A DNA stretch of 64,000 nt from Eubacterium sp. MSJ-33 (lineage in GTDB: Bacteria > Bacillota > Clostridia > Lachnospirales > Lachnospiraceae). Shown one piece after another: positions 16,273-35,002 of the stretch (the first letter of the stretch is position 1; the number at the start of each line of letters is the position of its first letter). The DNA is taken from positions 1 through 64,000 of the forward strand of contig NZ_CP076562.1 in assembly GCF_022174665.1 (NCBI RefSeq), given 5' to 3'. Both the position numbers and the translations under genes were made by a program. The notes beneath the pieces were generated by a model. That model had not been told where the DNA came from and did not search any database. It worked only from the letters and a program-made list of their open reading frames with translations.

Positions 16273-16980
<708 letters not shown>

Positions 16981-21527: not shown

Positions 21528-21561
21528 TCGATAAAATCATTTCTTTGCGGAGGGGAAAAAC

Positions 21562-23994
21562 ATGGCAAATTATTGTATTTATGAAGTAAAAGTAATTGGA
21601 AGTGAAAAGGCATGTTTAATGGTGTTTGAATCAATGCCATATATGGATTATAACCAGATAGAGACTAAGAATCAGAAGAATGAATTAACAGAGCTTATGT
21701 TTGCAGGCAACTGTAAGTGGTCCGTTAATTTTAAAGTGAGAGATGTATTGTCAAAGGTGGATGTTGATTCTTTTGATGAAACATTAATTCAGGAAAAAGC
21801 TTCTGATTATTACCAATATTCATTAAGAGCAAAGTCTGAAGCATTTGAATGTGAAATATTGGTACATTATTGGTCTGAGGAATCTGGGTTTGATCAGTTT
21901 GACCATTATAAAAATGGAGAAATTATAAAAAAGAGAAAAATAAAATTCAACTCTAAGAAACAAAATCGATTTGACTGGAACAAGACAGAATTCGTCGGAC
22001 ACGAAGGAGAATATGATGAGTCTGTGGATGGTGAGGAACAAGATGAAAAATATGTAAAATTTATAACGGATACTATTAATAAATTGGCTGGAAAGACAGA
22101 TGTGTCAATTGATACAAAAAGAGATAAAAATATGAGTACAGACATGGAAAAAGTAGAAAATGCTATGTATCAATGGACGTTTACACAAGGAAATACAGTG
22201 AACTTGAATGAATGGACGATAGGAATTCCGGATGGATTTATGAAAATAAATTCAGAAGAGATGATACCTACAACACACAAAAAAAGACCATTTGAATTGG
22301 TACCTATCAAAGACAAAGAAAATCCTGAATGTGCGACGGTGCGTATTTTGCCAGGTCTTATGAAAAGCGTAGGAAATATAGGAGTTTCAGATATGTACCA
22401 TCCGCTTGCAAAATTGGGTATTGCAGCAATTGTAGCGTCTAATGGTGCTAAAGACTATTTGAAATCTATGGGTGTTGCTTCAAGAGTATTTTATACAGCT
22501 TGGGATAATTCTTATGCATATATACTTGTTCAAGATGCGTTATTTGATACAGTTGATTATCATTGCACGGTATTGGCAAATGGAAAGATCCAAATCTTGG
22601 GCGTGAGGACAGGCGTTAGCGATGTAGATGATTTTGATGAAGATAGAAAAAAACAGTTAGAGCAGTCAATTATTGAATGGTTACATACAATGCAATCTAA
22701 TAAATGTTCAGTGACTGTTCCAACAGTAAAATTTGAAGATGATGATTGTTTTGATGAGGTTATGAAAGGGAAAAGCCTGAAAAAATTTGAAACTGCTGTA
22801 CAACAAGCGCATGAGGAATATCGTGTAGCAATGTTAGGAAAAATGCATGTTGTAAAGTATGAGTTTGAAAGTGGGGTTGGAGTCGGAAAACAAAATGTAA
22901 AGGAAACGACAAAAGAAGTTCTATTGGAAGGAATGAAGGTACGGGAGTTTTATGCAGAAAAGGCAAATGATTTCGTGCAAAGAATACAGCAAGCGGAGAT
23001 AACGGGGGATACTTTTATAAAAATTCTAAAAAAATTGTTGGAATTAAAGAAGGATGATGAGCTAGCAAAAGTAACAATCGATAATCGTGTGGTTAAGGTG
23101 GATGTTCCAGACAGAGTAAAAGAAATAGAAAAAGAATGGGAGAAGATACTTCGTTCTGAGGAAGAGAAAAAGACAAGGGAACTTCAAAAAAAGAGAGAAA
23201 TAGAGGAAGCGAAAAGAAAAACTGCTTTGGAAAAAGAAGCTGCTGAAAAGAAAGCCAGAATGGAAAAAGAAGTAGCCGCGTGGACGGAAGAGGTTGAGAA
23301 AATAAAGAAAGATCGCGAAGCAAATCGTATAGAGAAAATAGCATCATATGAAGATGTGGCCAAAATTAGAAAGCAACATGCAGAGGAAGTTCGAACAACA
23401 CAACTGGATAGCACAAACGGCATGATTCAGGATTTGAAGAACCGTTTATCTTTGGATACTATAGAACTTGGACAATTGGGAGTGTTAAAGTTTCACAGAA
23501 GAAAAGAATTGCAAAATTCTATTGAACAATTGACAAGAGAATTGCAGGAAAAAGAACATGTCCTTATAACAATTGAAAAGGAATATGAAAAGGAAATAAA
23601 AAATGCTGATGAAGAATACACCCGGAAAGTAAATGGCCTTTCCGCGTATCTGGATGAAAAGTATCAAGTGCCAGAAAGTCCAATGGTGGTTGAAGAAAGA
23701 AAGCAAAGAGAAGAAGAAAAAGAAAAAAAAGAACGAAAAATAAAAGAGGATCCTAATTACGAAATAAAGTTAGAGATAATAGAACTTTTGGAGAGCGGTG
23801 AACCGATGATGTGTACTGAAGTGGCCAAAGAACTTGATATCTCTATAAATAAAGCAGTTGCTCTCATGTCGCAGCTTGCTGGTTCGGCGGATATGGAAAA
23901 ACGAGAACCGGGAAAGATATATCCGCTCATTCGTTTTGCAGATGGAAAGAGGATTAAATTTAAGATTAATCCGGAGTGGGATTCAGAGTTATAA
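21562..23994 (+). CDS. large coiled-coil protein (810 aa) with C-terminal winged-helix
   Basis: ~250-aa Glu/Lys-rich heptad region; C-terminal LEIIELLESGEPMMCTEVAKELDISINKAVALMSQL wHTH-like; unknown N-terminal globular domains. Confidence 0.6.
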   Translation: MANYCIYEVKVIGSEKACLMVFESMPYMDYNQIETKNQKNELTELMFAGNCKWSVNFKVRDVLSKVDVDSFDETLIQEKASDYYQYSLRAKSEAFECEILVHYWSEESGFDQFDHYKNGEIIKKRKIKFNSKKQNRFDWNKTEFVGHEGEYDESVDGEEQDEKYVKFITDTINKLAGKTDVSIDTKRDKNMSTDMEKVENAMYQWTFTQGNTVNLNEWTIGIPDGFMKINSEEMIPTTHKKRPFELVPIKDKENPECATVRILPGLMKSVGNIGVSDMYHPLAKLGIAAIVASNGAKDYLKSMGVASRVFYTAWDNSYAYILVQDALFDTVDYHCTVLANGKIQILGVRTGVSDVDDFDEDRKKQLEQSIIEWLHTMQSNKCSVTVPTVKFEDDDCFDEVMKGKSLKKFETAVQQAHEEYRVAMLGKMHVVKYEFESGVGVGKQNVKETTKEVLLEGMKVREFYAEKANDFVQRIQQAEITGDTFIKILKKLLELKKDDELAKVTIDNRVVKVDVPDRVKEIEKEWEKILRSEEEKKTRELQKKREIEEAKRKTALEKEAAEKKARMEKEVAAWTEEVEKIKKDREANRIEKIASYEDVAKIRKQHAEEVRTTQLDSTNGMIQDLKNRLSLDTIELGQLGVLKFHRRKELQNSIEQLTRELQEKEHVLITIEKEYEKEIKNADEEYTRKVNGLSAYLDEKYQVPESPMVVEERKQREEEKEKKERKIKEDPNYEIKLEIIELLESGEPMMCTEVAKELDISINKAVALMSQLAGSADMEKREPGKIYPLIRFADGKRIKFKINPEWDSEL

Positions 23995-24026
23995 ATATAG
24001 TGAAGGATATGGGAGGCGAAAAGCAA

Positions 24027-24145
24027 TGAGTTGTCCAAGATGTGGTGGAAAAATGGATAGTGGTATTTGCGAGGAATGTGGGTTCCCCATTACTCGTATT
24101 TGGGAACATGAAAATTATTATATGCTTTTATTTAGTGAAATATAA
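24027..24145 (+). CDS. 39-aa zinc-ribbon mini-protein
   Basis: MSCPRCGGKMDSGICEECGFPITRIWEHENYYMLLFSEI; strong RBS gggaggcgaaaagcaATG; the longer 23858 track ORF overlaps the preceding gene. Confidence 0.4.
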
Positions 24146-24165
24146 TTGTACGGGAGAGATTTATT

Positions 24166-27100
24166 ATGAAAATTAGAACGGATTTTGTGACAAATTCAAG
24201 TAGTAGTTCTTTTGTTGTTGAAATTTCTTTTACTTTGAAGGATGGCAGGGTGTTGAGGCGTTGTGAAGTAGGAGGGGAGGATGGAAGAGATTTATATGTG
24301 TGTGCGAGTCCAAGACAACTTGGTCTCTGTAAGAATGTTGAGGAAATGATTACGCTGTTAAATGATAGCGTAAAAGTCGAGGAGCGCTTTGATGACTGTA
24401 ATAGAAAGAAATTTGTTGATACAAATTTTATACAGCAACTTGAGTCAATAAAAGAAATGAGCGAAATTGAAAAAATTACAATTTCGGGAAATGAACTAAA
24501 TTATGAAGAGTATGAGAGAATTTATAGATATAATCTTGATACAGAAGAGTATACCTGCGAAATTTTTGGAGAGGAATTTGAAAGTGAAGGATCAGGAGGA
24601 AATCTGGAATTTTGTGACGGATTTTTGGCAACACGTCAGGATGGATATGATGATGGGGAGTTTTTGCGTGTTGAAGATTTACCAATAATTGTTCCGTTGG
24701 AAGAAAGTAGTGATAAAGAACAGGTAAGTTTATTGGAAAATGTCAGAGAAGGTGAAAAACTTATTCTGAAAAATGAATTTACGGATGATTTATTTGACCC
24801 TGTAAAAATAGGCGTTTTTAATAAAAAAAATCAGCTGCTAGGGTATCTTTGCGAATTGGACTATTCGTTAATAGCAATAGCAAGAGCATTAGAAGATGTT
24901 GATGCTTGTGTCGATTCTGTCGCACCATTATCTGGTAGAAAGAAAAATGAAGAATATTCTTTAATGGATGTGAGAATTACATCAAAGGAAGGAAATAACC
25001 CATTTGCAGAAGGTTATAAAATAAAATTTGATGTAAGTGAATTATCTGAAGATGAGAAAAAGTTATTTAATGAAATGATAGAGCACTGGAGAAATCAGTA
25101 TGACAAAGAAGAAGTAACTATGAGCTGGATTTTTAAAATAAATCCACCAGAGTATTTTGTGACTTGTGATGAATTTGATGAAAAAACAGCAGAAGAAACA
25201 AAAAGATTTTTACAAGAAGCAGGTAGCAGAAGTAGCTTAAAAAAGTTACATGCAACATTTTGGGGAAATCTGAATTTTGAAAAAAGAAAATTTCGGCAGT
25301 ATAACTATCTGCTGGATAGAGGATTCTTAGATTGTGAAAAAACAATAGAAGAAAAGAAAGATGAATGCATTACTAATCAGTCATCTTCGTTGGAAGAAAA
25401 AATAGAAAAAGCAGTCGAGAAAGTGAGCAACTTGAAAAAAATGTCTAATACCATGTTTTATGATAGTAGGCATAGTGTGAATATGGATTTTCAAAAAGGA
25501 AAGATTGTTGAATTTGGTAATTATAGACAAGGAAAAAATGGAGTAGTTAAACCTTTACAATGGGTTGTTTTGGAGCGAAAGGGGAATGGTGCAAAACTTC
25601 TTTCATTAAAAGGAATTGAAACCTTGCCATACAATGTCAAAGATGGAAAAACAAGCTGGGAGAAATGCTTTCTTCGTTCGTGGTTGAACACAGAATTTTA
25701 TAATGCTGCATTTTCTTCTGAAGAGGCAGAAAGCATTATTTTATCGGATGTGGTTGCGGTTAGGCACCCCCAATATTTAACTTCACCAGGAAATGATACG
25801 AAAGATAAAATTTTTCTTTTAAATTATCAGGAGGCTGAGAACGTTGGGAAAAGGTGGAAAAAAACATATTTAACGGAATGGGCAGTTCAAAATGATGACT
25901 TGTTTAAAAAAAATTATGGCATAAATAATTATGCACTGTGGTGGTTGAGAACTCCGGCTAGTGCAACGAAAAGAAGTTGTGTGATGGGAAAATATATTTC
26001 TGGGATAGATGTTCGAGATGTTGATGGTATAGCGGTTAGACCTGCGATTTGGATAAATCTTAATTCAGAATATTTTGGTGGATCATTTGAAGTAATGGTA
26101 AAGGATGCTGAGAAAGAATTGTCTGTTGATGAGGTAATTGAAAAAATAAAAGAAAAATACAATACGAAAACAAAACCGACATCTACAATAGAATTTGATA
26201 TTCAAAATGTAGAATACACTAAGCAATTAAATGAATTAAAAAAGAAATGTGAAAATGAATTAGAAATTACATACAGAAATTATTTAATTCAAATGGGAGT
26301 TTTAGGAGACAAGGTAAAATTAATTGATACATACGATCCGTCAGAAATGATCAAGACCTTAAAAGAAAAATATAACAACAGTGAATTAAAACCGAAAACA
26401 TTTGTTGAGTTGATGGATAAAAATCCGGAATTCCGCGAAGAATTAAATACTTTACGTTCTGTATCTCAAAAAAAGTATGGAGATACAGCTGTTGACTATT
26501 TGAAAAAACAGGGGATAATTGCAACTTCGGAGGAAATAGCAGCTATCAGACAAGAAAAAATTAAAAAAATAGTGGTGGAAACAGCAGAACGGAAAGCAGA
26601 AATAAGAAGAAAGGAACGATTAAGGAAAGTTGATAGGATACAAATACAAGATGCAAAATTGCAAAATAAAGTAGATAAATTAATTTATGGCCTGAATGAA
26701 TTATATCCTGAGCATAAAGTATTTTCTTTGGATAGTTTGGATGGCACTCTGCGGGAAAATTTATCAAAGTATGCAAAACAAATAGGATATTTATCTGCTG
26801 ACGATATGCTTTTGGCATATGATTTTGTGAAGATTGATGCTGATGAGGTTAAAGAAATCCGCCCTAATGTATTACATAAACCGGGAAATGAACCAGAAAT
26901 AATCAAGGGTAAGGTGCAAAGTATATTAAGACGATTAGAAGAATATTATCCGGATAAAAAAATAGAGAGGAGTATTCAGTTGGATCATAAAAAACTAAGC
27001 CAAAGTATTACTGGGGCATATCTTTGGCTTGGATATAACAATCAAGGGGAATTCCTGAAGGCTTACGGATATGAAAATAATATAAAATATAATGAAAATG

Positions 27101-27318
27101 GGCGTGGTGGAGGAAGACCATCTTCGACAAATGTAGAAGAGCTTATTATGGAATTAAAGAAAAGAAGTGGAGGAAATCCATATTCTGGATTTAAGGAATT
27201 AAAAGAGAAGAATCCGGATCTGGCAGGAAAGTTAAAAACTATATCTAACAAAGCAAATAGTTTGTTAGGAATGCCGTTCGTAAAGTATTTAAAGCAAGAG
27301 GGAATCGTGCGTGATTAA
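24166..27318 (+). CDS. 1050-aa protein: Ser-run N-terminal module (MKIRTDFVTNSSSSSF), HIRAN-like segment, DUF6273-like domain, long helical C-terminus
   Basis: DUF6273-like block GKIVEFGNYRQ...PLQWVVLE...LLSLKGIETLPYN...SWEKCFLRSWLNTEFYNAAFSSEE...YALWWLRTPAS...VRPAIWINL; HIRAN-like GEKLILKNEFTDDLFDPVKIGVFNKKNQLLGYL. Confidence 0.65.
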   Translation: MKIRTDFVTNSSSSSFVVEISFTLKDGRVLRRCEVGGEDGRDLYVCASPRQLGLCKNVEEMITLLNDSVKVEERFDDCNRKKFVDTNFIQQLESIKEMSEIEKITISGNELNYEEYERIYRYNLDTEEYTCEIFGEEFESEGSGGNLEFCDGFLATRQDGYDDGEFLRVEDLPIIVPLEESSDKEQVSLLENVREGEKLILKNEFTDDLFDPVKIGVFNKKNQLLGYLCELDYSLIAIARALEDVDACVDSVAPLSGRKKNEEYSLMDVRITSKEGNNPFAEGYKIKFDVSELSEDEKKLFNEMIEHWRNQYDKEEVTMSWIFKINPPEYFVTCDEFDEKTAEETKRFLQEAGSRSSLKKLHATFWGNLNFEKRKFRQYNYLLDRGFLDCEKTIEEKKDECITNQSSSLEEKIEKAVEKVSNLKKMSNTMFYDSRHSVNMDFQKGKIVEFGNYRQGKNGVVKPLQWVVLERKGNGAKLLSLKGIETLPYNVKDGKTSWEKCFLRSWLNTEFYNAAFSSEEAESIILSDVVAVRHPQYLTSPGNDTKDKIFLLNYQEAENVGKRWKKTYLTEWAVQNDDLFKKNYGINNYALWWLRTPASATKRSCVMGKYISGIDVRDVDGIAVRPAIWINLNSEYFGGSFEVMVKDAEKELSVDEVIEKIKEKYNTKTKPTSTIEFDIQNVEYTKQLNELKKKCENELEITYRNYLIQMGVLGDKVKLIDTYDPSEMIKTLKEKYNNSELKPKTFVELMDKNPEFREELNTLRSVSQKKYGDTAVDYLKKQGIIATSEEIAAIRQEKIKKIVVETAERKAEIRRKERLRKVDRIQIQDAKLQNKVDKLIYGLNELYPEHKVFSLDSLDGTLRENLSKYAKQIGYLSADDMLLAYDFVKIDADEVKEIRPNVLHKPGNEPEIIKGKVQSILRRLEEYYPDKKIERSIQLDHKKLSQSITGAYLWLGYNNQGEFLKAYGYENNIKYNENGRGGGRPSSTNVEELIMELKKRSGGNPYSGFKELKEKNPDLAGKLKTISNKANSLLGMPFVKYLKQEGIVRD

Positions 27319-27353
27319 TCGTCTGGAGTTTTGGCAAAGAGAGAGGTAAATGT

Positions 27354-28451
27354 GTGAAATATATAATCAGGGATAAAAAATATCGTTTTAAATCAGCGTT
27401 TGATATGGAAACAGGTGCATATGTAAGAACCGGTATTTTAGATGAAAATGGGGAGGATACAGGGGTAGATCCTTTTATGGCGTCTTTTCCGCATCTTATT
27501 GATGTGGGTGTAATGGGACATTGCACTCATGGAAAAACAGGTTTGTGTGCAAGAGCAGGTATAGGCTGTTATCAGAATGGTTTGTATATCAATCAACCCA
27601 ATATGAGTGTAGAAGATTTCCGATGGATTGCGGAACAGTGTAAGGGTAGATGTAATCAATTAGCGCTTGGGGGACGTGGGGATCCAGACCAACATGAACA
27701 ATTTGAAGAACTACTAATGATTAGTAGAGAAAATATGTTAGTTCCTAATTTTACAACTTCTGGTTATGGAATGACAACACAGATTGCGTCCTTGTGTAAA
27801 AAGTATTGTGGCGCGGTTGCTGTTAGTTGGTATAGGAATGAGTATACAATAGAGGCAATAAATATGTTGTTGGAAGCGGGTGTTAAAACAAATATACATT
27901 ATGTGTTGGGAAATAATAGTATTAACGAGGCAATTGAGAGGTTATCAACTGATGATTTCCCGAAAGGTATTAATGCAGTTATTTTTCTTTTACATAAGCC
28001 CGCAGGGCAGGGAACGAAAGATAACATGTTGGCTGTTGGGGATCCGCGAGTAAAGCGTTTTTTTGAGCAGATTGAAAAAAAACATCCGTTTAAGGTAGGA
28101 ATGGATAGCTGCAATGTGCCGGGAGCAATTAATTTTTGTAATAAAATCATTCCGGAATCGTTAGACACATGCGAGGGAGGCCGATATAGCTGCTATATTG
28201 GTGCAGATATGATTATGGTTCCGTGTAGCTTTGATCAACAGAAAATATATGGGGTGTCTCTAAGAAAAATGGATATAACAGATGCTTGGAATAGCATACA
28301 ATTCAAAAACTTTAGAGACAAAATGAAAAATGTCTGTCCGGACTGCAATAAAAAAGCGTTGTGCATGGGAGGATGTCCCCTTATGCCGGAAATTGTATTT
28401 TGCAACAGAAAGGAAAGAAAATTGTATAAAGGAGAAGACAATGAAAATTAG
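27354..28451 (+). CDS. radical SAM/SPASM-like Fe-S protein with non-canonical N-terminal Cys motif (CX7CX6C)
   Basis: GTG start with RBS agagagg. GHCTHGKTGLCARAGIGC where CX3CX2C is expected. GGRGDP at GGE-motif position. NFTTSGYG at ribose-motif position. C-terminal Cys clusters CNVPG..FCNK..C.GG..C and CPDCNKKALCMGGCP typical of SPASM/twitch. Confidence 0.45.
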   Translation: MKYIIRDKKYRFKSAFDMETGAYVRTGILDENGEDTGVDPFMASFPHLIDVGVMGHCTHGKTGLCARAGIGCYQNGLYINQPNMSVEDFRWIAEQCKGRCNQLALGGRGDPDQHEQFEELLMISRENMLVPNFTTSGYGMTTQIASLCKKYCGAVAVSWYRNEYTIEAINMLLEAGVKTNIHYVLGNNSINEAIERLSTDDFPKGINAVIFLLHKPAGQGTKDNMLAVGDPRVKRFFEQIEKKHPFKVGMDSCNVPGAINFCNKIIPESLDTCEGGRYSCYIGADMIMVPCSFDQQKIYGVSLRKMDITDAWNSIQFKNFRDKMKNVCPDCNKKALCMGGCPLMPEIVFCNRKERKLYKGEDNEN

Positions 28452-28515
28452 AACAGAGTTTGTAACTAATTCAAGTAGTAGCAGTTTTAGTGTTATGCAG
28501 ATGTTGAGGAAGTAG
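28441..28515 (+). CDS. orphan 24-codon ORF duplicating the N-terminal module of the 24166 gene (MKIRTEFVTNSSSSSFSVMQMLRK)
   Basis: Strong RBS aaggagaag; first ~50 nt near-identical to 24166-24215; overlaps the 3' end of the rSAM-like gene by 11 nt; may be a precursor-like peptide or a gene-start remnant. Confidence 0.35.
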   Translation: MKIRTEFVTNSSSSSFSVMQMLRK

Positions 28516-28647
28516 ATATAACTACTAAAAAAATTAGAAATTTTAAAAGGTATTATTTGCAACAAAGGGATATTAGATTTGGTTGGAGCATGGAGTGATC
28601 GTCATATAGAATTATGATTTTGCATAAGGAAAGATGAGGAATGGAAG

Positions 28648-30378
28648 ATGCAGGAAAATTATGAGTTAGTACAACGAGGTTTTCGAAAACTGGTAGTTAC
28701 GTTTTCTGGTTATATTGGAAGGGAATTCAGTAAAAAATATAAAAATGCATGGTGGGACGAAGTGTTAGAGGCATTATCAGACCAGCATGATTTGCCAAGT
28801 GATGGTGAATATGGATATCTGATAGATTCATTAGATATTTTAAATTGTATTCGCTTATTAGAACGCAGGTGGAAAGAAGTTTTTCAAGATGAGTTACCTT
28901 TGAACTGTCGTACATGGGCAAAAGAACTTAAGGGGATTAGGAATAAAGTCGCTCATATTGGTCAGCAGGATTTGGATCAGCCCATAGCAGAACGTGCACT
29001 TGACACGATGCGTTTGCTATGTAAAGAATTGGATTCGGATGATGCGGCAGAAATTGAAAAAATATATGAAGAGGTTAGAAAAAGAGCAAATGATTATCGA
29101 CCGGTGACGCGTATTTTTGAGGGAGTAGAGCAACCGGCTTCAGAATCTAATCGCGGTGAATTGATGAAAGATAGTCTTCTTCAGCTTGTCGGAACGGATG
29201 TGGTTCAGAAAACAACGTTGACAAGGAAGGTAACATATGGAGGGAAAACAGTTATTTACCCGGTGTATCGGATTCGCTTAGACTATCTTTTTTATAATGA
29301 TCAGAATGATCGAATAGCAACCTGGATTACCCGATATCAGGCTGAAAATGGCGAAGATTCTTTGCTTGAGCTAGGGAGAGAAGAATACAATAATGTTATT
29401 GAAACATTTATATATGAAAGCAATCCGGATGCAATATCAAAAACACAAAAAAATATTTTGTTGGTCGGACAACGTGAGCCGGGAGTTACTTTATCAGATG
29501 GGCGTATTGTGGATGGAAACCGAAGATACACTTGTTTGCGAAGAATTCAACGTGAGAAAATAGGACCTGTTTATTTTGAAACAGTAATTATGGATATGGA
29601 TATCCGGGAAGACAAGAAACAGATAAAATTATTGGAACTTGCAATACAGCACGGAGAAGAAAAAAAGGTAGACTATGATTTGATTGATTATGCGATTGGT
29701 ACATATAGGGATATTGTGCAGACAAAGCTGCTTACATTGGACGAATACGCAACAGGGACAAATGAAAAACCGGCAGATGTAAAAAATCGAATTGAAATTG
29801 CAGAAATTATTAGTGAGTTCCTAAAGTATATAAAGCTTCCGGAGCAATATCACATTGCGAGGGAATATCAGGTTTATAGTTTGTTTCAGGAGATGATGGC
29901 TCCGCTTAAAAAGTTGAATGAATCAGAAAAGGCGCAACTAAAGAAAATAACATTTAATAATGCTATGATGAAAGTTATACCTGACCAGAGAAAATTTATA
30001 CGAGATATTAAAGGACTGGTTAAAAATGGCACCTATGAATCATATTTTGAAGAACAAATGAATTGGATTAATGTGATTCGGGACAAGTTTGATATGTGCG
30101 AAGTTCATTCTAAAAGTGATATAGACAAGTTTGCAGAAGAAAATGCGAAGATTGCAGAGGAATTGCAAATATCGATGGAAAGAGCTCTGCAAAAATCCCG
30201 GTCAATAATATTAAAAAATAAACCGGTAGAAAATGTGTCAAAAAGTATTACTCTTTTAACAGAGGTGGATTCCAGACTGTTTGGAAGGTTGGAAGAGGAA
30301 GAGAAAAAGCAATTAAAAGACGAATTGGATGAACTTGCAAGAATTGTAGATGTGTTTCGGGAAAAACTTGTGAGGTAG
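28648..30378 (+). CDS. HEPN (Swt1-like, Rx4H) N-terminal domain fused to ParB/Srx-like (DUF262/DGQHR-type) domain
   Basis: GIRNKVAH at 28939-28956 at the end of a ~110-aa helical domain with conserved W/R pattern; downstream IVDGNRRYTCLRRI matches the ParB/DUF262 DG(Q/N)(Q/H)R motif. Confidence 0.5.
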   Translation: MQENYELVQRGFRKLVVTFSGYIGREFSKKYKNAWWDEVLEALSDQHDLPSDGEYGYLIDSLDILNCIRLLERRWKEVFQDELPLNCRTWAKELKGIRNKVAHIGQQDLDQPIAERALDTMRLLCKELDSDDAAEIEKIYEEVRKRANDYRPVTRIFEGVEQPASESNRGELMKDSLLQLVGTDVVQKTTLTRKVTYGGKTVIYPVYRIRLDYLFYNDQNDRIATWITRYQAENGEDSLLELGREEYNNVIETFIYESNPDAISKTQKNILLVGQREPGVTLSDGRIVDGNRRYTCLRRIQREKIGPVYFETVIMDMDIREDKKQIKLLELAIQHGEEKKVDYDLIDYAIGTYRDIVQTKLLTLDEYATGTNEKPADVKNRIEIAEIISEFLKYIKLPEQYHIAREYQVYSLFQEMMAPLKKLNESEKAQLKKITFNNAMMKVIPDQRKFIRDIKGLVKNGTYESYFEEQMNWINVIRDKFDMCEVHSKSDIDKFAEENAKIAEELQISMERALQKSRSIILKNKPVENVSKSITLLTEVDSRLFGRLEEEEKKQLKDELDELARIVDVFREKLVR

Positions 30379-30383
30379 GGGTT

Positions 30384-33302
30384 ATGAATATAAAAATATT
30401 ATCAATTGATGAAATAGGTTTGTCAAATCGTTCTGTGAATGCACTACATAGGGTGGAAATATATACAGTTGGGGAGATGATAGAATTAAACGAAGAATTT
30501 TTGCATAAGATTAGAAATATTGGAGAAAAATCAATTGAAGAAATTTGTAAGAAAATACAGGAATATAAAATATTGGAAACAAATTCGAATATTGAAGTTC
30601 CGGAAGATTTTGATGAATGGATTTTGGTTGAATCCAACCAGCAATTTGTAATAACGTGGTTAAGAGATAATAAGATAAAAATCGACGAATTAGAATTATT
30701 ATCGGTACGGGCATATAATTTGCTGATATTTTCAGGGTATGAGTATTTGTATCAGGTGGCTTTTCTTACAGAAAAAGATTTGATGCAGATTCCCAGAATG
30801 GACAGCTCATCTGCATTAGAAATTGTTCGGTATGTATCAAGATATATTGCGGAACAACAAGAACAAATTATTGCGTCAATTGTTCAGATGCAGTCTAAGG
30901 AGACACCATTAAATCAGGTGTCAGTTTTTGATATACTTGATAAAATTGAATATCATGATGTGATATTGGACTTTGTGAAATTGCATGATATTTTGCTTGA
31001 TGGAATGAATATTTCCAATCGGGCAAAAAATAGCTTGAGTATAAGCGGGTATTATTATCTTAGTGATATAGTATTTATGACATATACGCAGCTGAAAAAT
31101 ATACCATCTATGGGAGCTGGAACGGCAAAAGAAGTTATAGATAAAATAAATGAATATCTAAGTAAATATGAAGCGAGAATTTTGGCATTCGTTAGTGGTG
31201 ATGTGTCTGGGTTATGGGATGACACAGAAATACAACAGAGGATTTGGAATCAGTTTCGTGATATTGGATTTCAAGGACTTAGTCTGAATGAAATAGTAGA
31301 ACGGATGAAGCTTCCGGAACAAGTGACGATAGAGCGAATAAAGAAAAATATAGGTCAGCTGATTGTTGATAAAAAATTAGAATATGTAGATTATCGATGT
31401 TACCGTGTGTATGCGCGGTTTGCGGATTATTTGGAGCAATGTGATGTTATTGATGAAAGATCAAAAAATATTTTAAGAAAACGATTGCAATCTATGACAT
31501 TAGAAGAGATTGGACAAGAAGAAGGGATAACCAGAGAACGGGTACGTCAAATCCTGAAGAAAGGGATTGTCCAAATTAAAAAAATATATAAGTCAAGGGA
31601 AGGTACCAATTTATTTGATGAGGATTATTATCGATATTTGTATGAAAATTATGATTTTGATAAAAAGGATGGAACGGAATGGCTTGGAATTCCCGTATAC
31701 GTATGGAAATATCTTGAGTTAAATGATGTAAAACAGGGAAAGAAAGAGTTGCAGTCGGCGAGGGAAGATCAACAGGGACTTGATCTTGGAATGCGTTTGA
31801 AAATAAAAAACTATCTTAATAGAAATAAACTTTTTGTGGATGGTAGATGGATTGAAAAGGAGCGTGCGGAATTAGAAAAGGTTGTTATTAGAAAATTTTG
31901 TCAGGAAGATGTATCGTTTGGGAAGTTTTGCCAGATATATAATCAGTTTTTGTTACAGGAAGAAATACCATATGATGAAGATATCTATTATACAGAGACA
32001 GTGTATCGGACAAGAAAAAATCGTATTCGTGATTTAAGATACTTGCTTTGGAAACAGCACGAACAAATAAGATATTATGATATTGATGGACGTGATTATG
32101 ATGAACTTTTGGATACATTAAATCTGGATGCTTATGAGAATATTGAATTGTCGACAGAAAAATTCATGAGAGATTATCCGGAAATTATGAAGAAATATGA
32201 TATCCGGGATAAGTATGAATTACATAATTTATTAAGGAAAATCATACCGGAAGGAAGTTATCATGAGTTTTTCTGTGAACGTACGCCAAATATCAGATTT
32301 GGACACTTTGATCGTGATGCTGCAGTATTGGACATTTTGATTGATAATGCGCCAATAGCTCAGGATGATTTAGCGGATCTAATAAGTGAGGAATATGGAT
32401 TTGATGCGGATGGAATAAAATCTAATTATTTGAAGCCGGTTTCAGAGTATTTACATCAACGTACATATTCGATTGATCAGAAATCCATGTCTGTTGAAAA
32501 TCGAGAATTATTACATGAAGCACTTACAGATGATTTCTATTTTATGGATGAGATTCGACAGATTTATGATAGGTTAATTCCAGGGGCAGATAGAGAAGAG
32601 ATTAATCCGTATAATTTGAAGGTGATGGGATTCCATGTTTATTCAAGATATGCAATTCAAAACCATTCGTCTGTTGATGCGTATTTTGATGACTTATTAA
32701 CGCGGGAAGATATTATAGATATTACAGCGTATAAAAAAAGATATGCATATGTGCAGATGTTTTCGCAGAAGTTGATGGAATTAAAACGAGATTTAACAGT
32801 AATTGAATTTGAAAAAAATCAGATTATTAATTTTAGAAAATTGGAGCAATCAGGTGTTACGAAAAATATGATTCAGGAATTTTGTGATAATGTTTATAAC
32901 TTTATTACAGATGGAACATATTTTAGTATTCAATCCTTGATACAGGATGGCTTTCAGTCTGACTTGCATGAGCTGGGATTTTCTGATTGGTTTTATGCGA
33001 ATTTGTTAATATCTGATGAACGTTTTTCAGCTGCTATGATGTTTGGAAATTTGATTTTTTATAAGGGAAAAGCGTCAATAACGATTAAGATGTTTGAAAA
33101 AGATATTATTTGTAAGTATCAAAGTATGGATACATATGATCTTGTGGATGAACTTACCGATCGGTATGGATGTAAGGTTCCGGATAAATATGATGTTATC
33201 TATAAAGTTCAGGATACAGAGGTGTATTATGATAAAATCTTAGATCGTCTGTATGCCAACATGAATGTATATGATGAAGAATGCGCGAGAGGAGGGTTTT
33301 AA
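30384..33302 (+). CDS. 972-aa protein: 3x RNA-polymerase alpha-CTD-like HhH repeats + sigma-70 region-4-like HTH + ~600-aa unknown C-terminal region
   Basis: LSIDEIGLSNRSVNALHRVEIYTVGEMIELNEEFLHKIRNIGEKSIEEI (alpha-CTD pattern) repeated at aa ~100 and ~200; MTLEEIGQEEGITRERVRQILKKG (sigma r4.2 pattern). Confidence 0.55.
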   Translation: MNIKILSIDEIGLSNRSVNALHRVEIYTVGEMIELNEEFLHKIRNIGEKSIEEICKKIQEYKILETNSNIEVPEDFDEWILVESNQQFVITWLRDNKIKIDELELLSVRAYNLLIFSGYEYLYQVAFLTEKDLMQIPRMDSSSALEIVRYVSRYIAEQQEQIIASIVQMQSKETPLNQVSVFDILDKIEYHDVILDFVKLHDILLDGMNISNRAKNSLSISGYYYLSDIVFMTYTQLKNIPSMGAGTAKEVIDKINEYLSKYEARILAFVSGDVSGLWDDTEIQQRIWNQFRDIGFQGLSLNEIVERMKLPEQVTIERIKKNIGQLIVDKKLEYVDYRCYRVYARFADYLEQCDVIDERSKNILRKRLQSMTLEEIGQEEGITRERVRQILKKGIVQIKKIYKSREGTNLFDEDYYRYLYENYDFDKKDGTEWLGIPVYVWKYLELNDVKQGKKELQSAREDQQGLDLGMRLKIKNYLNRNKLFVDGRWIEKERAELEKVVIRKFCQEDVSFGKFCQIYNQFLLQEEIPYDEDIYYTETVYRTRKNRIRDLRYLLWKQHEQIRYYDIDGRDYDELLDTLNLDAYENIELSTEKFMRDYPEIMKKYDIRDKYELHNLLRKIIPEGSYHEFFCERTPNIRFGHFDRDAAVLDILIDNAPIAQDDLADLISEEYGFDADGIKSNYLKPVSEYLHQRTYSIDQKSMSVENRELLHEALTDDFYFMDEIRQIYDRLIPGADREEINPYNLKVMGFHVYSRYAIQNHSSVDAYFDDLLTREDIIDITAYKKRYAYVQMFSQKLMELKRDLTVIEFEKNQIINFRKLEQSGVTKNMIQEFCDNVYNFITDGTYFSIQSLIQDGFQSDLHELGFSDWFYANLLISDERFSAAMMFGNLIFYKGKASITIKMFEKDIICKYQSMDTYDLVDELTDRYGCKVPDKYDVIYKVQDTEVYYDKILDRLYANMNVYDEECARGGF

Positions 33303-33307
33303 TTATA

Positions 33308-33808
33308 ATGGTTCAGGCAAAAAAACAGTTTCTTGATGAAGTAGAAAAACTTCATGAAAGAAATGAACTATCCAAGAAAGTAGAAGCAACATATTTTGAA
33401 CCGGGAATGATGGAGTATCTGGAACAATCAGAAGGTATATATGAAGAGGGTACAGGGAATGTTATTCTTCGTTTTGAAGTTATGGGAACACGTTATGATG
33501 GTCGGACAGAGCAGATTGAAAAGTTAAAACCGGGGGACTTGATACAAATAGTCAGAGAAAAAGAAAATCCTTACAACTCTAATAATTTTACTTTGCTGAC
33601 AAAACGAGGACAAAATGTGGGGAATATGCCGGCTAATTTATGTAACGCGATTGCACCATTGTATGATGAAGGAAATTTAAAAATCATGGATGCCTCTGTT
33701 AGCTATGTGGAACCTATTTCCAAGAGAAATCGTCATGCCAAGCAAGCTATCTTATTTGTGGAATTAAAGGCAAAACTGAATTCCGCCCTGAATTCCGCCC
33801 CATGCTAG
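33308..33808 (+). CDS. HIRAN domain protein
   Basis: FEVMGTRYDGRTEQIEKLKPGDLIQIVREKENPYNSNNFTLLTKRGQNVGNMPANLCNAIAPLYDEG matches HIRAN (3'-DNA-end binding) pattern; C-terminal 12-bp tandem duplication ctgaattccgcc x2 (LNSALNSA). Confidence 0.55.
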   Translation: MVQAKKQFLDEVEKLHERNELSKKVEATYFEPGMMEYLEQSEGIYEEGTGNVILRFEVMGTRYDGRTEQIEKLKPGDLIQIVREKENPYNSNNFTLLTKRGQNVGNMPANLCNAIAPLYDEGNLKIMDASVSYVEPISKRNRHAKQAILFVELKAKLNSALNSAPC

Positions 33809-33839
33809 CAAATCTTTTTATTTTATGATATGCTAGCAT
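33802..33839. promoter_or_regulatory. operator-like pair of TGCTAGCA palindromes spaced ~20 bp
   Basis: aTGCTAGCAaatctttttattttatgataTGCTAGCAt overlapping stop of HIRAN gene, 27 bp upstream of HipA-like start. Confidence 0.4.
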
Positions 33840-33865
33840 TATCAAAATGAAAGGGCGGACGTAGT

Positions 33866-35002
33866 GTGGGATATATCTTAAAATTATTCGATACAGATCT
33901 TTTGAAGTTTGATGTGATTGAGAACTTGGCAGATCCTGTACTTAAGATAACATGGATGGATGAATCGCGGAAGGCACTGTTTCCACTTGGAATGGAAGTG
34001 TCAGACGACGGAATTGCAAGTTTTATTCGGCATCGTTGTATACCGAAGAACCGGGCATATGTGAATGCGTTTCTGGCAAAAAATGGACTTAGTGCAAATC
34101 GCCCTATGGATGTGATTACGGTATGTAAAGGCCTTTCTCTGAATGATTCGTATTGGATTACAGAAGAGGATTCGGTGCAGAGTTTTGCATCCAGCAACCT
34201 GTACGAGAATCGTTTCAGTCGTTTGCTTGCGTGGACGGCATTTACCGGATATGGCAGTAGTGTGCGGGCAACGTTTTTATCTTCACCGGAATTTACGACG
34301 AATGGTATGCTGCCGAAATGCTGGCGCAGAATGGAGAATAAAATATATCTCTATAAAGGAGCGACTTCCGGTGCAGCCAATACTGGAATGGAACCGTATT
34401 CCGAATTGTATGCGTATGAGATTGGTGCGCATGCCGGATTTTCGGTAATCCCTTATAAAATAAGCGTATGGAAGGGAAATGTATGCTCTGTATGTGAGCT
34501 TTTTACAAGCAAAGATCTGGCATATGTTCCGGCTGGGTATATTATAAAAAAAGGTGGCATGGACGCTGTCCGTAAGTTTTATGGAACATTAGGTGCAGAA
34601 TTTGTGGATGCGTTGGATGAGATGTTGGTATTTGATGCGATTGTCTGCAATACAGATCGCCATTTCGGAAACTTTGGCGTGCTTGTGGACAGTCACACAA
34701 ATCAGATTGCAGCACCGGCGCCATTGTTTGATCATGGCAATGCACTTTTTAATTTGGCGGGTGAAGAAAACTGGGAGAATGAGAACATATTGCAGGCGTA
34801 TATAGACACGTTATTTCCTTGTGTCTATGATGATTTTATGGAGGAAGCGAAGCGTGTGTTGAAACCATCAATTCGGGAAAAGGTAAAAAAGCTTTTAACA
34901 TTCGAAGTGAAAAAGATGGGAAGAACGAATTATGACAGTAAAAAATTGAAGCTTATGACAAAGATTATTCAGAAGCGCGCAAGAGCACTTTTGGAATCAT
35001 AA
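33866..35002 (+). CDS. HipA-like Ser/Thr kinase domain protein (no adjacent HipB-type HTH gene)
   Basis: HipA_C motifs VFDAIVCNTDRHFGNFGVL and APLFDHGNAL; GTG start. Confidence 0.6.
   Translation: MGYILKLFDTDLLKFDVIENLADPVLKITWMDESRKALFPLGMEVSDDGIASFIRHRCIPKNRAYVNAFLAKNGLSANRPMDVITVCKGLSLNDSYWITEEDSVQSFASSNLYENRFSRLLAWTAFTGYGSSVRATFLSSPEFTTNGMLPKCWRRMENKIYLYKGATSGAANTGMEPYSELYAYEIGAHAGFSVIPYKISVWKGNVCSVCELFTSKDLAYVPAGYIIKKGGMDAVRKFYGTLGAEFVDALDEMLVFDAIVCNTDRHFGNFGVLVDSHTNQIAAPAPLFDHGNALFNLAGEENWENENILQAYIDTLFPCVYDDFMEEAKRVLKPSIREKVKKLLTFEVKKMGRTNYDSKKLKLMTKIIQKRARALLES

What the first reader, a model, noticed from the sequence alone, without database searches (positions are those of the whole stretch)
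27354..28451. rSAM/SPASM-like enzyme lacking the canonical CX3CX2C motif (CX7CX6C in its place)
The fold-level landmarks of radical SAM enzymes are present in order: a GGxxP-like GGRGDP, an NFTTSGYG ribose-motif-like segment, and two C-terminal Cys clusters resembling SPASM/twitch. The SAM-cluster motif itself reads GHC-THGKTGL-C-ARAGIG-C. Either this is a divergent cluster ligation, a degenerate non-radical relative, or a misassignment.
Basis: seen in the sequence. Interest (0 to 1): 0.55.

Follow-up and report, generated by a model that had tools for sequence, protein, structure and literature searches.

The report
Variant radical-SAM enzyme with tagged partner proteins
This gene encodes a genuine radical-SAM/SPASM enzyme whose iron-sulfur loop is stretched to CX7CX6C, and it always sits beside proteins that share an invariant 16-residue N-terminal tail, an undescribed enzyme-plus-tagged-protein module common in phages and bacterial defence islands.

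Summary
ORF 27354-28451 (+, 365 aa) carries C57-X7-C65-X6-C72, GGRGDP, NFTTSGYG and a complete SPASM cysteine set.

It is not a misassignment:
- The AlphaFold model (pLDDT 93.7) matches SuiB, anSME and PqqE.
- The family profile hits solved rSAM/SPASM enzymes at E 1.8e-15.
- All three loop cysteines are conserved down to about 31% identity.

Sister clades, 41% identical (hhalign E 3e-105), carry the canonical CX3CX2C. Intermediates exist (CX4-5CX2C, CX5CX3C, CX7CX3C). The motif is therefore a stepwise 8-residue loop expansion, not a loss.

Beyond the finding, the enzyme is half of a two-gene module. Its neighbours all begin M-K-[IVF]-[RK]-x-D-F-V-T-N-S-S-S-S-S-[FY] and are otherwise unrelated (LRR, BRCT, TIR, beta-propeller, DUF6273, or small acidic proteins). 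Here the neighbours are the 1050-aa gene at 24166-27318 and a 24-aa relic at 28441-28515. Phage contigs carry arrays of 3-8 such genes.

The tail is modelled as a disordered N-terminal extension. It is most likely the enzyme's substrate, but the chemistry is unknown. Neither half is named in Pfam, NCBIfam, PADLOC or PHROGs, and my literature searches found no description.

The parts
27354..28451 (+). Radical-SAM/SPASM enzyme, 365 aa, GTG start
   Evidence: ORF. AF2 model has pLDDT 93.7. Foldseek top hits are SuiB, anSME and PqqE. The family has 4320 homologues.
27354..27491 (+). Family-specific N-terminal extension (residues 1-46) with three short beta-strands before barrel strand beta1. It is a candidate peptide-docking element (inference).
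   Evidence: Strands E3-7, E12-16 and E23-25 in the model. F16, G21, R25 and P46 are conserved. No RRE/PqqD Pfam hit.
27522..27569 (+). Expanded SAM-cluster loop C57-X7-C65-X6-C72, directly after strand beta1 (residues 48-54)
   Evidence: Cys conservation. hhalign shows an 8-residue insertion relative to the canonical clade. Spacing census.
27669..27686 (+). GGRGDP, a GGE-motif variant with one inserted residue
   Evidence: G106, G107 and G109 are invariant. GGxG[DN]P also occurs with canonical loops in phage relatives.
27747..27770 (+). NFTTSGYG, counterpart of the TNG ribose-binding segment of SPASM rSAM enzymes
   Evidence: P131, T134 and G137 are conserved. Canonical relatives read NYTTNG at this position.
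28110..28403 (+). SPASM domain with eight conserved Cys (253, 273, 291, 328, 331, 337, 341, 350), enough for two auxiliary [4Fe-4S] clusters
   Evidence: Pfam PF13186 scores 28.2 bits. The region aligns to the anSME and SuiB auxiliary-cluster cysteines. Conservation.
24166..27318 (+). Partner protein, 1050 aa. Invariant tail MKIRTDFVTNSSSSSF, then a ~150-aa N-domain, DUF6273 (residues 479-631) and a C-terminal region.
   Evidence: N-domain homology. AF2 model.
24166..24213 (+). Invariant 16-residue N-terminal tail, the proposed recognition or modification site
   Evidence: Positions 1, 2, 4, 6, 8 and 10-12 are invariant, and 7, 9 and 13-15 nearly so, in 76 unique N-termini. Residues 1-14 are coil in the model; mean pLDDT is 53 for residues 1-10 and 82 for 11-20.
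28441..28515 (+). 24-aa ORF MKIRTEFVTNSSSSSFSVMQMLRK. It overlaps the enzyme stop by 11 nt and has AAGGAG upstream. It is a truncated relic of a downstream partner gene.
   Evidence: Only the first ~24 residues match partners, and D6 is replaced by E. In most loci a full partner starts -16 to +38 nt from the enzyme stop.

Best explanation
The ORF encodes a functional member of the radical-SAM/SPASM superfamily. Its SAM-cluster loop was lengthened by eight residues, from CX3CX2C to CX7CX6C, while keeping three cysteine ligands. It also keeps eight further cysteines for two SPASM auxiliary clusters. It is the catalytic half of a mobile two-gene module. The other half is one or more proteins that share only an invariant, disordered N-terminal tail, M-K-[IVF]-[RK]-x-D-F-V-T-N-S-S-S-S-S-[FY], fused to unrelated bodies. 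The enzyme most likely binds that tail, threads it into the barrel, and modifies a residue within D6-F16 by 5'-deoxyadenosyl-radical hydrogen abstraction. S11, S12 and N10 are invariant. The auxiliary clusters would handle the redox step. By analogy the candidate chemistries are Ser-to-formylglycine oxidation (as in anSME), a side-chain cross-link (as in SuiB) or epimerisation. Shown here: fold, conservation, origin of the motif, gene pairing, and disorder of the tail. Inferred: cluster binding, SAM cleavage, the tail as substrate, and the chemistry.
For: Fold and superfamily:
- AF2 model has pLDDT 93.7 and pTM 0.92.
- Foldseek top hits are SuiB (E 3e-11), anSME, PqqE, TigE and SkfB.
- The family profile hits SuiB at 1.8e-15, and also SkfB, anSME, BtrN and PqqE.

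Motif:
- The three loop Cys and the SPASM Cys are conserved.
- The canonical-motif sister clade aligns at probability 100, E 3e-105, 41% identity. It differs mainly by an 8-residue loop insertion and +1 residue in the GGE motif.
- Intermediates CX4CX2C, CX5CX2C, CX5CX3C and CX7CX3C exist.

Pairing:
- 94 tail-bearing ORFs were found in the first 85 loci, and 91 of them have the motif at the extreme N-terminus.
- About 74 of 81 species-representative genome loci have a partner once the motif is relaxed.
- 47 of 51 first downstream partners start -16 to +38 nt from the enzyme stop.
- No other gene recurs in more than 5 loci.
- The pairing also holds for canonical-motif members in Agrobacterium plasmids and metagenomes.
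- It holds in phage contigs, with 3-8 tailed genes per array.

Tail:
- Residues 1-14 are coil in the model; mean pLDDT is 53 for residues 1-10 and 82 for 11-20. The fold starts at residue 15, and the whole domain model scores 86.8.
- Tail residue 4 tracks the enzyme clade: K with canonical loops, R with expanded loops.

Precedent: rSAM enzymes HxsB/HxsC mature the protein effector HxsA in an antiphage system (PMC13128918).
Against: - No biochemical data exist for any family member.
- The aromatic residue that normally precedes the third Cys (CxΦC) is replaced by G/Q/E in the CX7CX6C clade, and the GGE motif carries an insertion. SAM binding may therefore differ.
- Pfam Radical_SAM is below threshold for this protein.
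- No enzyme-tail complex could be modelled.
- Tail invariance is equally compatible with pure docking.
- In one phage partner class, conserved E/D/H residues and a C-terminal HH suggest the tail could be part of a metal site rather than a free peptide.
- The K4/R4 co-variation may be shared ancestry only.
Confidence: 0.55

Rival explanations
1. Adaptor model. The invariant tail is only a docking handle, analogous to an F-box. The variable bodies (LRR, BRCT, beta-propeller and others) recruit third-party targets such as phage or host proteins or nucleic acids. The enzyme then modifies those targets, or the partners regulate the enzyme.
For: Partner bodies are typical recognition domains: LRR_5 in 9 partners, BRCT in 5, PQQ_2 propeller in 2. 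One enzyme serves 1-8 different partners. Cellular copies lie among defence genes. The tail itself shows no variation that would indicate different modification outcomes.
Against: SPASM enzymes with solved structures act on the peptide that enters the barrel, and these are the best fold matches. Many partners are small acidic proteins with no recognisable binding domain. The strict invariance of small polar residues (N10, S11, S12) is more typical of a reaction site than of a docking strand.
Confidence: 0.2
2. Degenerate relative. The expanded loop still binds a cluster or another metal, but the protein no longer cleaves SAM. It would act as a redox, structural or chaperone partner of the tailed proteins.
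For: Pfam Radical_SAM scores 17 bits, below its cut-off of 29.5. The aromatic residue before the third Cys is lost and the GGE motif has an insertion. His56 and His59 are conserved in the loop of this clade and could fill the open iron site.
Against: H59 is not invariant within the clade; A, Y and S occur at that position. All other SAM-site landmarks are kept at the same level as in canonical sisters. GGRGDP also occurs with a canonical CX3CX2C loop in phage relatives, so it does not mark decay. The same partner type is kept across canonical and expanded clades, which argues for an unchanged job. Working enzymes with non-canonical spacings are known: HmdB CX5CX2C, QueE CX14CX2C and ThiC CX2CX4C (PMC4389238).
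Confidence: 0.12
3. Classical RiPP pathway. The tail is a leader peptide, the variable region is the core, and the product is a processed, exported peptide.
For: A conserved N-terminal segment followed by hypervariable sequence, with several precursor-like genes beside one rSAM/SPASM maturase, resembles RiPP loci. Short tailed ORFs of 35-78 aa exist.
Against: No protease, transporter or RRE gene recurs in 81 loci. Partners are mostly 95-1062 aa and carry intracellular folded domains (BRCT, TIR, LRR). The only residues conserved enough to be modification sites lie in the tail itself. The 24-aa ORF here looks like a truncation, not a precursor.
Confidence: 0.08

Closest known systems
Anaerobic sulfatase-maturating enzymes (anSME/AtsB) acting on sulfatases
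   Same: rSAM barrel plus a full SPASM domain with two auxiliary clusters, and no RRE. The substrate is a short motif in a large folded protein encoded nearby. Serine can be the target residue (Ser to formylglycine). anSME is among the best structural matches.
   Different: TIGR03942 scores 14.5 bits against a cut-off of 349. The substrate motif C/S-x-P-x-R is absent. The partners are not sulfatases. The cluster loop is CX7CX6C. This family also has its own 46-residue N-terminal extension.
SuiB (streptide Lys-Trp cyclase) and other SPASM RiPP maturases (SkfB, CteB, PqqE, TigE)
   Same: Best fold match (5v1s, E 3e-11, TM 0.64) and best profile match (E 1.8e-15). One maturase is encoded next to its peptide substrate.
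   Different: About 17% identity. No RRE domain. No protease or exporter in the locus. The putative substrates are whole proteins with an N-terminal tag rather than short precursors.
HXS antiphage system (HxsB/HxsC rSAM enzymes maturing the effector HxsA; PMC13128918)
   Same: An rSAM enzyme modifies a protein, not a small peptide, that functions in phage-host conflict. The target carries a short repeated or invariant Ser-containing motif.
   Different: No NCBIfam Hxs model matched. HxsA has His-Xaa-Ser repeats, a signal peptide and a peptidoglycan-binding domain. This module has two genes, its tail is N-terminal and unique, and it is at least as common in phages as in cells.
Radical-SAM enzymes with non-canonical cluster motifs (HmdB CX5CX2C, QueE CX14CX2C, ThiC CX2CX4C, PhnJ CX2CX21CX5C; listed in PMC4389238)
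   Same: Three Cys with non-standard spacing ligate the SAM cluster. Motif-based tools miss or under-score these proteins.
   Different: In HmdB and QueE only the first interval is lengthened and CX2C is kept. Here both intervals are lengthened (X3 to X7, X2 to X6). The change can be followed through living intermediates within one orthologous family that keeps the same partner.

Membership tests
Radical SAM superfamily (PF04055) | Partial or full (beta/alpha) TIM-barrel core with the cluster loop after strand beta1 | tested here: met
   The AF2 model's top Foldseek hits are all rSAM enzymes. The loop follows strand E48-54.
Radical SAM superfamily (PF04055) | CX3CX2C cluster-binding motif | tested here: not met
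   The spacing is CX7CX6C. Three conserved Cys are present and correspond to the canonical ones, with an 8-residue insertion.
Radical SAM superfamily (PF04055) | Score above the curated Pfam gathering threshold | tested here: not met
   17 bits against 29.5. Canonical-loop family members are recorded with PF04055. The family profile hits solved rSAM enzymes at E 1.8e-15.
Radical SAM superfamily (PF04055) | GGE and ribose (TNG-like) SAM-binding motifs | tested here: inconclusive
   GGRGDP has one extra residue and D in place of E. TTSG replaces TNG. Both are conserved.
Radical SAM superfamily (PF04055) | [4Fe-4S]-dependent reductive cleavage of SAM | not testable with these tools
   Needs anaerobic reconstitution, EPR and 5'-deoxyadenosine assays.
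SPASM domain (PF13186 / TIGR04085) | Cys pattern C-x(9-15)-G-x4-C, gap, CX2CX5CX3C, gap, C, and the profile score | tested here: met
   PF13186 scores 28.2 against a cut-off of 21.5. TIGR04085 scores 25, just under its cut-off of 27. C273...C291, C328-X2-C331-X5-C337-X3-C341 and C350 are conserved, plus C253. The spacing C273-X17-C291 is longer than the textbook X9-15-G-X4.
Anaerobic sulfatase maturase (TIGR03942) | Equivalog score of at least 349, and a sulfatase substrate with C/S-x-P-x-R | tested here: not met
   14.5 bits. No sulfatase or SxPxR partner in the loci.
Tungsten-cofactor oxidoreductase rSAM maturase (TIGR04317), the best NCBIfam hit | Equivalog score of at least 380 | tested here: not met
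   35.2 bits, covering only residues 64-159.
RRE-dependent RiPP maturases | PqqD-like RRE domain fused to or encoded beside the enzyme, plus a protease or exporter | tested here: not met
   No PqqD/RRE Pfam hit in the enzyme. No recurring third gene in 81 loci.
Known anti-phage defence systems (PADLOC-DB 2.0) | Match to any PADLOC protein model | tested here: not met
   No hit for the enzyme or the partner at E <= 1.
PHROGs phrog_7293 (enzyme) and phrog_7397 (partner N-terminus) | Profile match | tested here: met
   The enzyme matches phrog_7293 at E 4e-20 over residues 5-337. Partner N-termini match phrog_7397 at E 5e-5 to 7e-3. Both families are labelled 'unknown function'.

The most novel reading that the evidence does not exclude
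A previously unrecognised protein-tagging system of phage-host conflict. One radical-SAM/SPASM enzyme installs a new post-translational modification on an invariant 16-residue N-terminal tail. That tail is shared by hundreds of otherwise unrelated proteins. Phages carry batteries of 3-8 small acidic tailed proteins, possibly an anti-defence arsenal that needs activation. Bacterial islands carry tailed LRR, BRCT, TIR or propeller proteins. The enzyme's loop expansion to CX7CX6C would then be a natural experiment showing how far the rSAM cluster loop can stretch while staying active.
Probability: 0.4. Interest if true: 0.85.

Novelty: new variant of a known kind. Interest (0 to 1): 0.68.

Why it matters
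For radical-SAM enzymology, the family offers an orthologous series with the same partner and the same fold. Its cluster loop grows from CX3CX2C through CX5CX3C to CX7CX6C, lengthening the normally fixed CX2C interval as well. That makes it a natural test bed for what the loop geometry and the aromatic residue before the third Cys contribute to SAM binding and cleavage. It also shows why motif- and Pfam-based censuses miss such enzymes.

For phage biology, the module is abundant. It has 4320 hits at 90% clustering, at least 296 hits in species-representative genomes and 237 in IMG/VR. It spreads horizontally across phyla at 70% identity or more. It links one enzyme to a large, fast-diversifying set of proteins marked by an invariant tail. 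If the tail is modified, this would be a new kind of protein maturation used on both sides of phage-host conflict. The 16-mer would then be a ready bioinformatic handle for finding all its clients.

Tried and rejected
- **Relocated-cysteine reading.** Pfam's local alignment puts C65 on the first canonical Cys. That makes C72 the third Cys and suggests the middle Cys was lost and replaced by C57. I rejected this. C57 follows strand beta1 at the same offset as the canonical first Cys. hhalign places an 8-residue insertion between the first and third Cys. The intermediates CX5CX2C, CX5CX3C and CX7CX3C show both intervals growing.
- **EF-Tu resemblance.** 'GHCTHGKT' looks like the EF-Tu P-loop (PDB phmmer E 0.18). 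This is chance, because K61 and T62 are not conserved in the clade.
- **Partner census.** The 45-aa tail profile returned only proteins of 34-78 aa from 108 candidates, so it is not a census.
- The first genome scan, with the broad alignment, found no usable conserved stretch. AFDB50 was not available.
- **Cultured phages.** tblastn of a phage-type partner found nothing. T4-like phages (Miller, RB43, Lw1) carry a 26%-identical CX7CX2C homologue. Only the Miller locus was inspected, and it has no tailed gene within 5 kb.
- **Literature.** Searches for the tail strings, for CX7CX6C and for SPASM with phage or defence terms found no description of this module. The VMAP/FxSxx-peptide rSAM systems (PMC7159879) and Ophion (bioRxiv 2025.09.30.679545) are different systems.
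- **Zn-ribbon ORF.** The small Zn-ribbon ORF upstream of the partner is lineage-specific and not part of the module.
Full report
**1. The observation**

The window has one long ORF at 27354-28451 on the + strand. It has a GTG start, a GAGAGAGG ribosome-binding region upstream, and encodes 365 aa. Close homologues begin at the same position with ATG.

- C57-THGKTGL-C65-ARAGIG-C72, which is CX7CX6C.
- GGRGDP at residues 106-111.
- NFTTSGYG at residues 132-139.
- C-terminal cysteines C253, C273, C291, C328-X2-C331-X5-C337-X3-C341 and C350.

Pfam finds the SPASM domain above threshold (28.2 bits, cut-off 21.5). It finds Radical_SAM only below threshold (17 bits, cut-off 29.5). NCBIfam gives no family-level hit. 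Its best match is TIGR04317 at 35 bits against a cut-off of 380.

**2. It is a real rSAM/SPASM protein**

The gene belongs to a large family. It has 4320 proteins at E <= 1e-3 among 90% clusters and 1364 representatives of 50% clusters.

An AlphaFold model built on 40 diverse members is confident (pLDDT 93.7, pTM 0.92). Its best matches among solved structures are all rSAM enzymes, led by the SPASM group. These are SuiB (E 3e-11), anSME, PqqE, TigE, SkfB and CteB.

A profile of the family finds the same proteins by sequence: SuiB at 1.8e-15, SkfB at 2.8e-12 and anSME at 1.5e-10. The CX2CX5CX3C block and the 'PC[SD]F' cysteine align to the auxiliary-cluster ligands of anSME and SuiB. Misassignment is therefore excluded.

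**3. Where the odd motif comes from**

In 59 full-length homologues of 31-52% identity, C57, C65 and C72 are present in 54, 52 and 54 sequences. The eight SPASM cysteines are present in 44-58.

The family alignment is the key result:
- Distant members have the textbook motif, for example CTKGCPYC, CDRGCEFC and CTKGCTFC.
- Others have CX4CX2C, CX5CX2C, CX5CX3C, CX7CX3C or CX5CX6C.
- The query's clade has C-x-H-G-x-[ST]-G-L-C-x-K-[AS]-G-[IV]-x-C.

Among the 150 best 50%-cluster representatives I counted 40 CX7CX6C, 13 CX5CX3C and about 25 canonical. All 120 close homologues are CX7CX6C.

A profile-profile comparison of the CX7CX6C clade with the canonical clade gives probability 100, E 3e-105 and 41% identity over 343 columns. 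The only gaps of note are an 8-residue insertion between the first and third Cys and one extra residue in the GGE motif, GG-G[EN]P against GGRGDP.

C57 follows strand beta1 at the same offset as the canonical first Cys. I therefore read the three cysteines as the original ligands on a stretched loop, not as a relocated ligand.

The other SAM-site landmarks are kept in both clades. These are L105-G106-G107, G109, P111, H114, P131, T134, G137, S158, N180, H182 and K215. GGRGDP also occurs with a canonical loop in phage relatives, so it is not a sign of decay.

What has changed is the residue before the third Cys. It is aromatic in the canonical members and G, Q or E here.

Published non-canonical motifs lengthen the first interval only (HmdB CX5CX2C, QueE CX14CX2C) or lie in a different domain (ThiC, PhnJ) (PMC4389238). 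I found no report of CX7CX6C in a radical-SAM enzyme.

**4. The surroundings: a two-gene module**

The gene upstream (24166-27318, 1050 aa) begins MKIRTDFVTNSSSSSF. A 24-codon ORF that overlaps the enzyme's stop codon (28441-28515, AAGGAG upstream) begins MKIRTEFVTNSSSSSF.

This is systematic:
- In the first 85 loci (80 of them species-representative genomes fetched through the enzyme) I found 94 ORFs with this start. In 91 of them the motif is at the extreme N-terminus, and all but one are on the enzyme's strand.
- In 76 unique N-termini, positions M1, K2, R4, D6, V8, N10, S11 and S12 are invariant. F7, T9, S13, S14 and S15 are nearly so. Position 16 is F or Y. Everything after about residue 22 is unalignable across classes.
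- With a slightly relaxed motif, about 74 of 81 genome loci have at least one partner. The exceptions are contig ends or apparently decayed loci.
- 47 of 51 first downstream partners start -16 to +38 nt from the enzyme's stop.
- When all ORFs of these loci are clustered, only the enzyme (79 loci) and the partners (60 or more) recur. The next cluster is in 5 loci. There is no recurring protease, transporter or RRE protein.

Partner bodies range from 95 to 1062 aa. Where they are recognisable, they carry LRR_5 (9 of 59), LRR_8, BRCT (5), a PQQ-type beta-propeller (2), TIR (1) or DUF6273 (1, this window). They are acidic, with a median pI of 4.4-4.7.

The pairing predates the loop expansion. Canonical CX3CX2C members in metagenomes and on Agrobacterium tumefaciens pAt plasmids have a neighbour starting MKIRNDFVSNSSSVSY, MKIKLDFVSNSSSTSF, MKIRTDFVTNSSSVSY or MKIRWDFVTNSSTTSF.

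**5. Phages**

A scan of IMG/VR found 237 stretches encoding relatives.

In the 80 loci kept, many of them from contigs of 45-250 kb, the enzyme is followed by up to eight small genes that all start with the tail. Fifty-five of the 80 loci carry three or more. The genes are 95-235 aa, have no Pfam domain, and belong to recurrent paralogue types.

PHROGs holds both halves as families of unknown function. phrog_7293 matches the enzyme at E 4e-20. phrog_7397 matches the partner N-termini weakly.

Canonical-loop phage enzymes go with tails that have K at position 4 (38 of 41). Expanded-loop enzymes go with R (97 of 97). This is co-inheritance at least.

Cellular copies of the CX7CX6C clade are at least 70% identical across Clostridia, Bacteroidales, Coriobacteriia and Bacilli. 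That indicates recent horizontal spread.

In this window the module sits in a low-GC stretch (about 33-37% against about 45%, roughly 20-34 kb). That stretch also holds a TIR protein, a Swt1-like HEPN protein, a protein with three RNA-polymerase alpha-CTD repeats plus sigma-70 region 4, a HIRAN protein and a HipA_C-like protein. A resolvase lies just upstream. In another locus the module lies between a Fic/Phd pair and a Vsr, methylase, HpaII and DrmE block.

**6. The tail is a free peptide in the model**

The first ~155 residues of the window's partner form a domain shared at 33-44% identity with several partners, some of which consist of this domain alone. Modelled with 46 database homologues, it reaches pLDDT 86.8.

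Residues 1-14 are the most conserved part of the protein, yet they are coil. Mean pLDDT is 53 for residues 1-10 and 82 for residues 11-20. The fold starts at residue 15.

**7. Mechanism**

Shown here: the fold, the conserved ligands, the origin of the motif, the gene pairing, and the disordered invariant tail.

Inferred:
- The protein binds three [4Fe-4S] clusters and cleaves SAM.
- The tail is what enters the barrel. This rests on the fact that the characterised SPASM enzymes that best match it here (SuiB, SkfB, anSME, PqqE, CteB) act on peptides or protein segments. It also rests on the tail being the only element common to all neighbours.
- The enzyme's own 46-residue N-terminal beta-sheet, conserved in the family and absent from anSME and SuiB, may dock tail residues 2-9 as an added strand.

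The chemistry cannot be derived from sequence. Ser to formylglycine (anSME-like), a cross-link (SuiB-like) or epimerisation are the obvious candidates.

I put 0.55 on this account. The main rival is that the tail is only a docking handle and the variable bodies bring in third-party targets (0.2). Next is a non-radical, degenerate enzyme (0.12). A classical exported-RiPP pathway follows at 0.08.

The 24-aa ORF is best read as a truncated partner. Only its first 24 residues match partners, nothing downstream matches in any frame, and the otherwise invariant D6 is E.

**8. Comparison and novelty**

The closest functional analogues are anSME/AtsB with sulfatases and HxsB/HxsC with HxsA (PMC13128918). 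The closest structures are SuiB and anSME.

The protein meets the fold and SPASM criteria of the superfamily. It fails the literal CX3CX2C criterion and the Pfam Radical_SAM threshold. It matches no curated equivalog, no PADLOC model and no named PHROG.

I rate it a new variant of a known kind: an rSAM/SPASM protein maturase with its client. Two features appear undescribed. One is the doubly expanded cluster loop with living intermediates. The other is the invariant N-terminal tail shared by a very diverse client set in phages and defence islands.

My literature searches were limited to open-access text and preprints. A description elsewhere cannot be excluded.

Noticed in passing
window 19983-35002: A low-GC stretch (about 33-37% against about 45% in the flanks) holds the module. 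It also holds a TIR-domain protein (19983-21527), an 810-aa protein (21562-23994), a Swt1-like HEPN protein (28648-30378), and a 972-aa protein with three RNA-polymerase alpha-CTD repeats plus sigma-70 region 4 (30384-33302; weak PADLOC PglW hit). A HIRAN protein (33281-33808) and a HipA_C-like protein (33866-35002) follow. A resolvase (16318-16980) and an SPFH/Band-7 protein (17378-19246) lie just upstream. It looks like a mobile defence island.
   Followed up: partly
L099-L131 and other IMG/VR loci, e.g. L100:9295-9807 and L157:3469-3996: 43 of 216 phage partners end in [FYI]-[SND]-H-H at the very C-terminus. In that class (36 unique sequences, down to 20% identity) E..EY.DH and lEH..P motifs are also conserved, which looks like a metal site. 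None of 92 cellular partners ends in HH. The tail might contribute to an active site in this class.
   Followed up: partly
window 27510-27545 (residues 53-64): The loop sequence VMGHCTHGKTGL resembles the EF-Tu G1/P-loop (GHVDHGKT) and gives weak PDB hits to EF-Tu (E 0.18). K61 and T62 are not conserved in homologues, so this is a coincidence.
   Followed up: yes
window 24026-24145: A small Zn-ribbon ORF (MSCPRCGGKMDSGICEECG...) lies just upstream of the partner. In the 98%-identical loci L001-L003 it is 47 aa and overlaps the partner start. It was not found next to partners in any other locus.
   Followed up: yes
L001:6814-9965 and L003:2429-5580 against window 24166-27318: In two near-identical metagenome contigs the 1050-aa partner is called as two genes (778 + 272 aa), while it is intact here and in L002. 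This is either a frameshift or stop in those lineages or an assembly error.
   Followed up: no
L091 (Citrobacter phage Miller 91374-92528); also RB43, Lw1, Klebsiella phages Matisse and Miro: 170 cultured, mostly T4-like phages encode a 26%-identical homologue annotated 'radical SAM protein', 'SPASM domain-containing protein' or hypothetical. In phage Miller, the one locus inspected, the loop is CX7CX2C (CNGPAGKLCGFC), the GGE region is different, and no tailed gene lies within 5 kb.
   Followed up: partly
window 27807-27809 (C152): A further cysteine, C152 in YCGAVAVS at the start of strand beta4, is conserved in 51 of 59 homologues although it is in neither the cluster loop nor the SPASM domain. 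It could be a hydrogen-atom donor, as in rSAM epimerases, but this was not examined.
   Followed up: no
[not shown]
   Followed up: no
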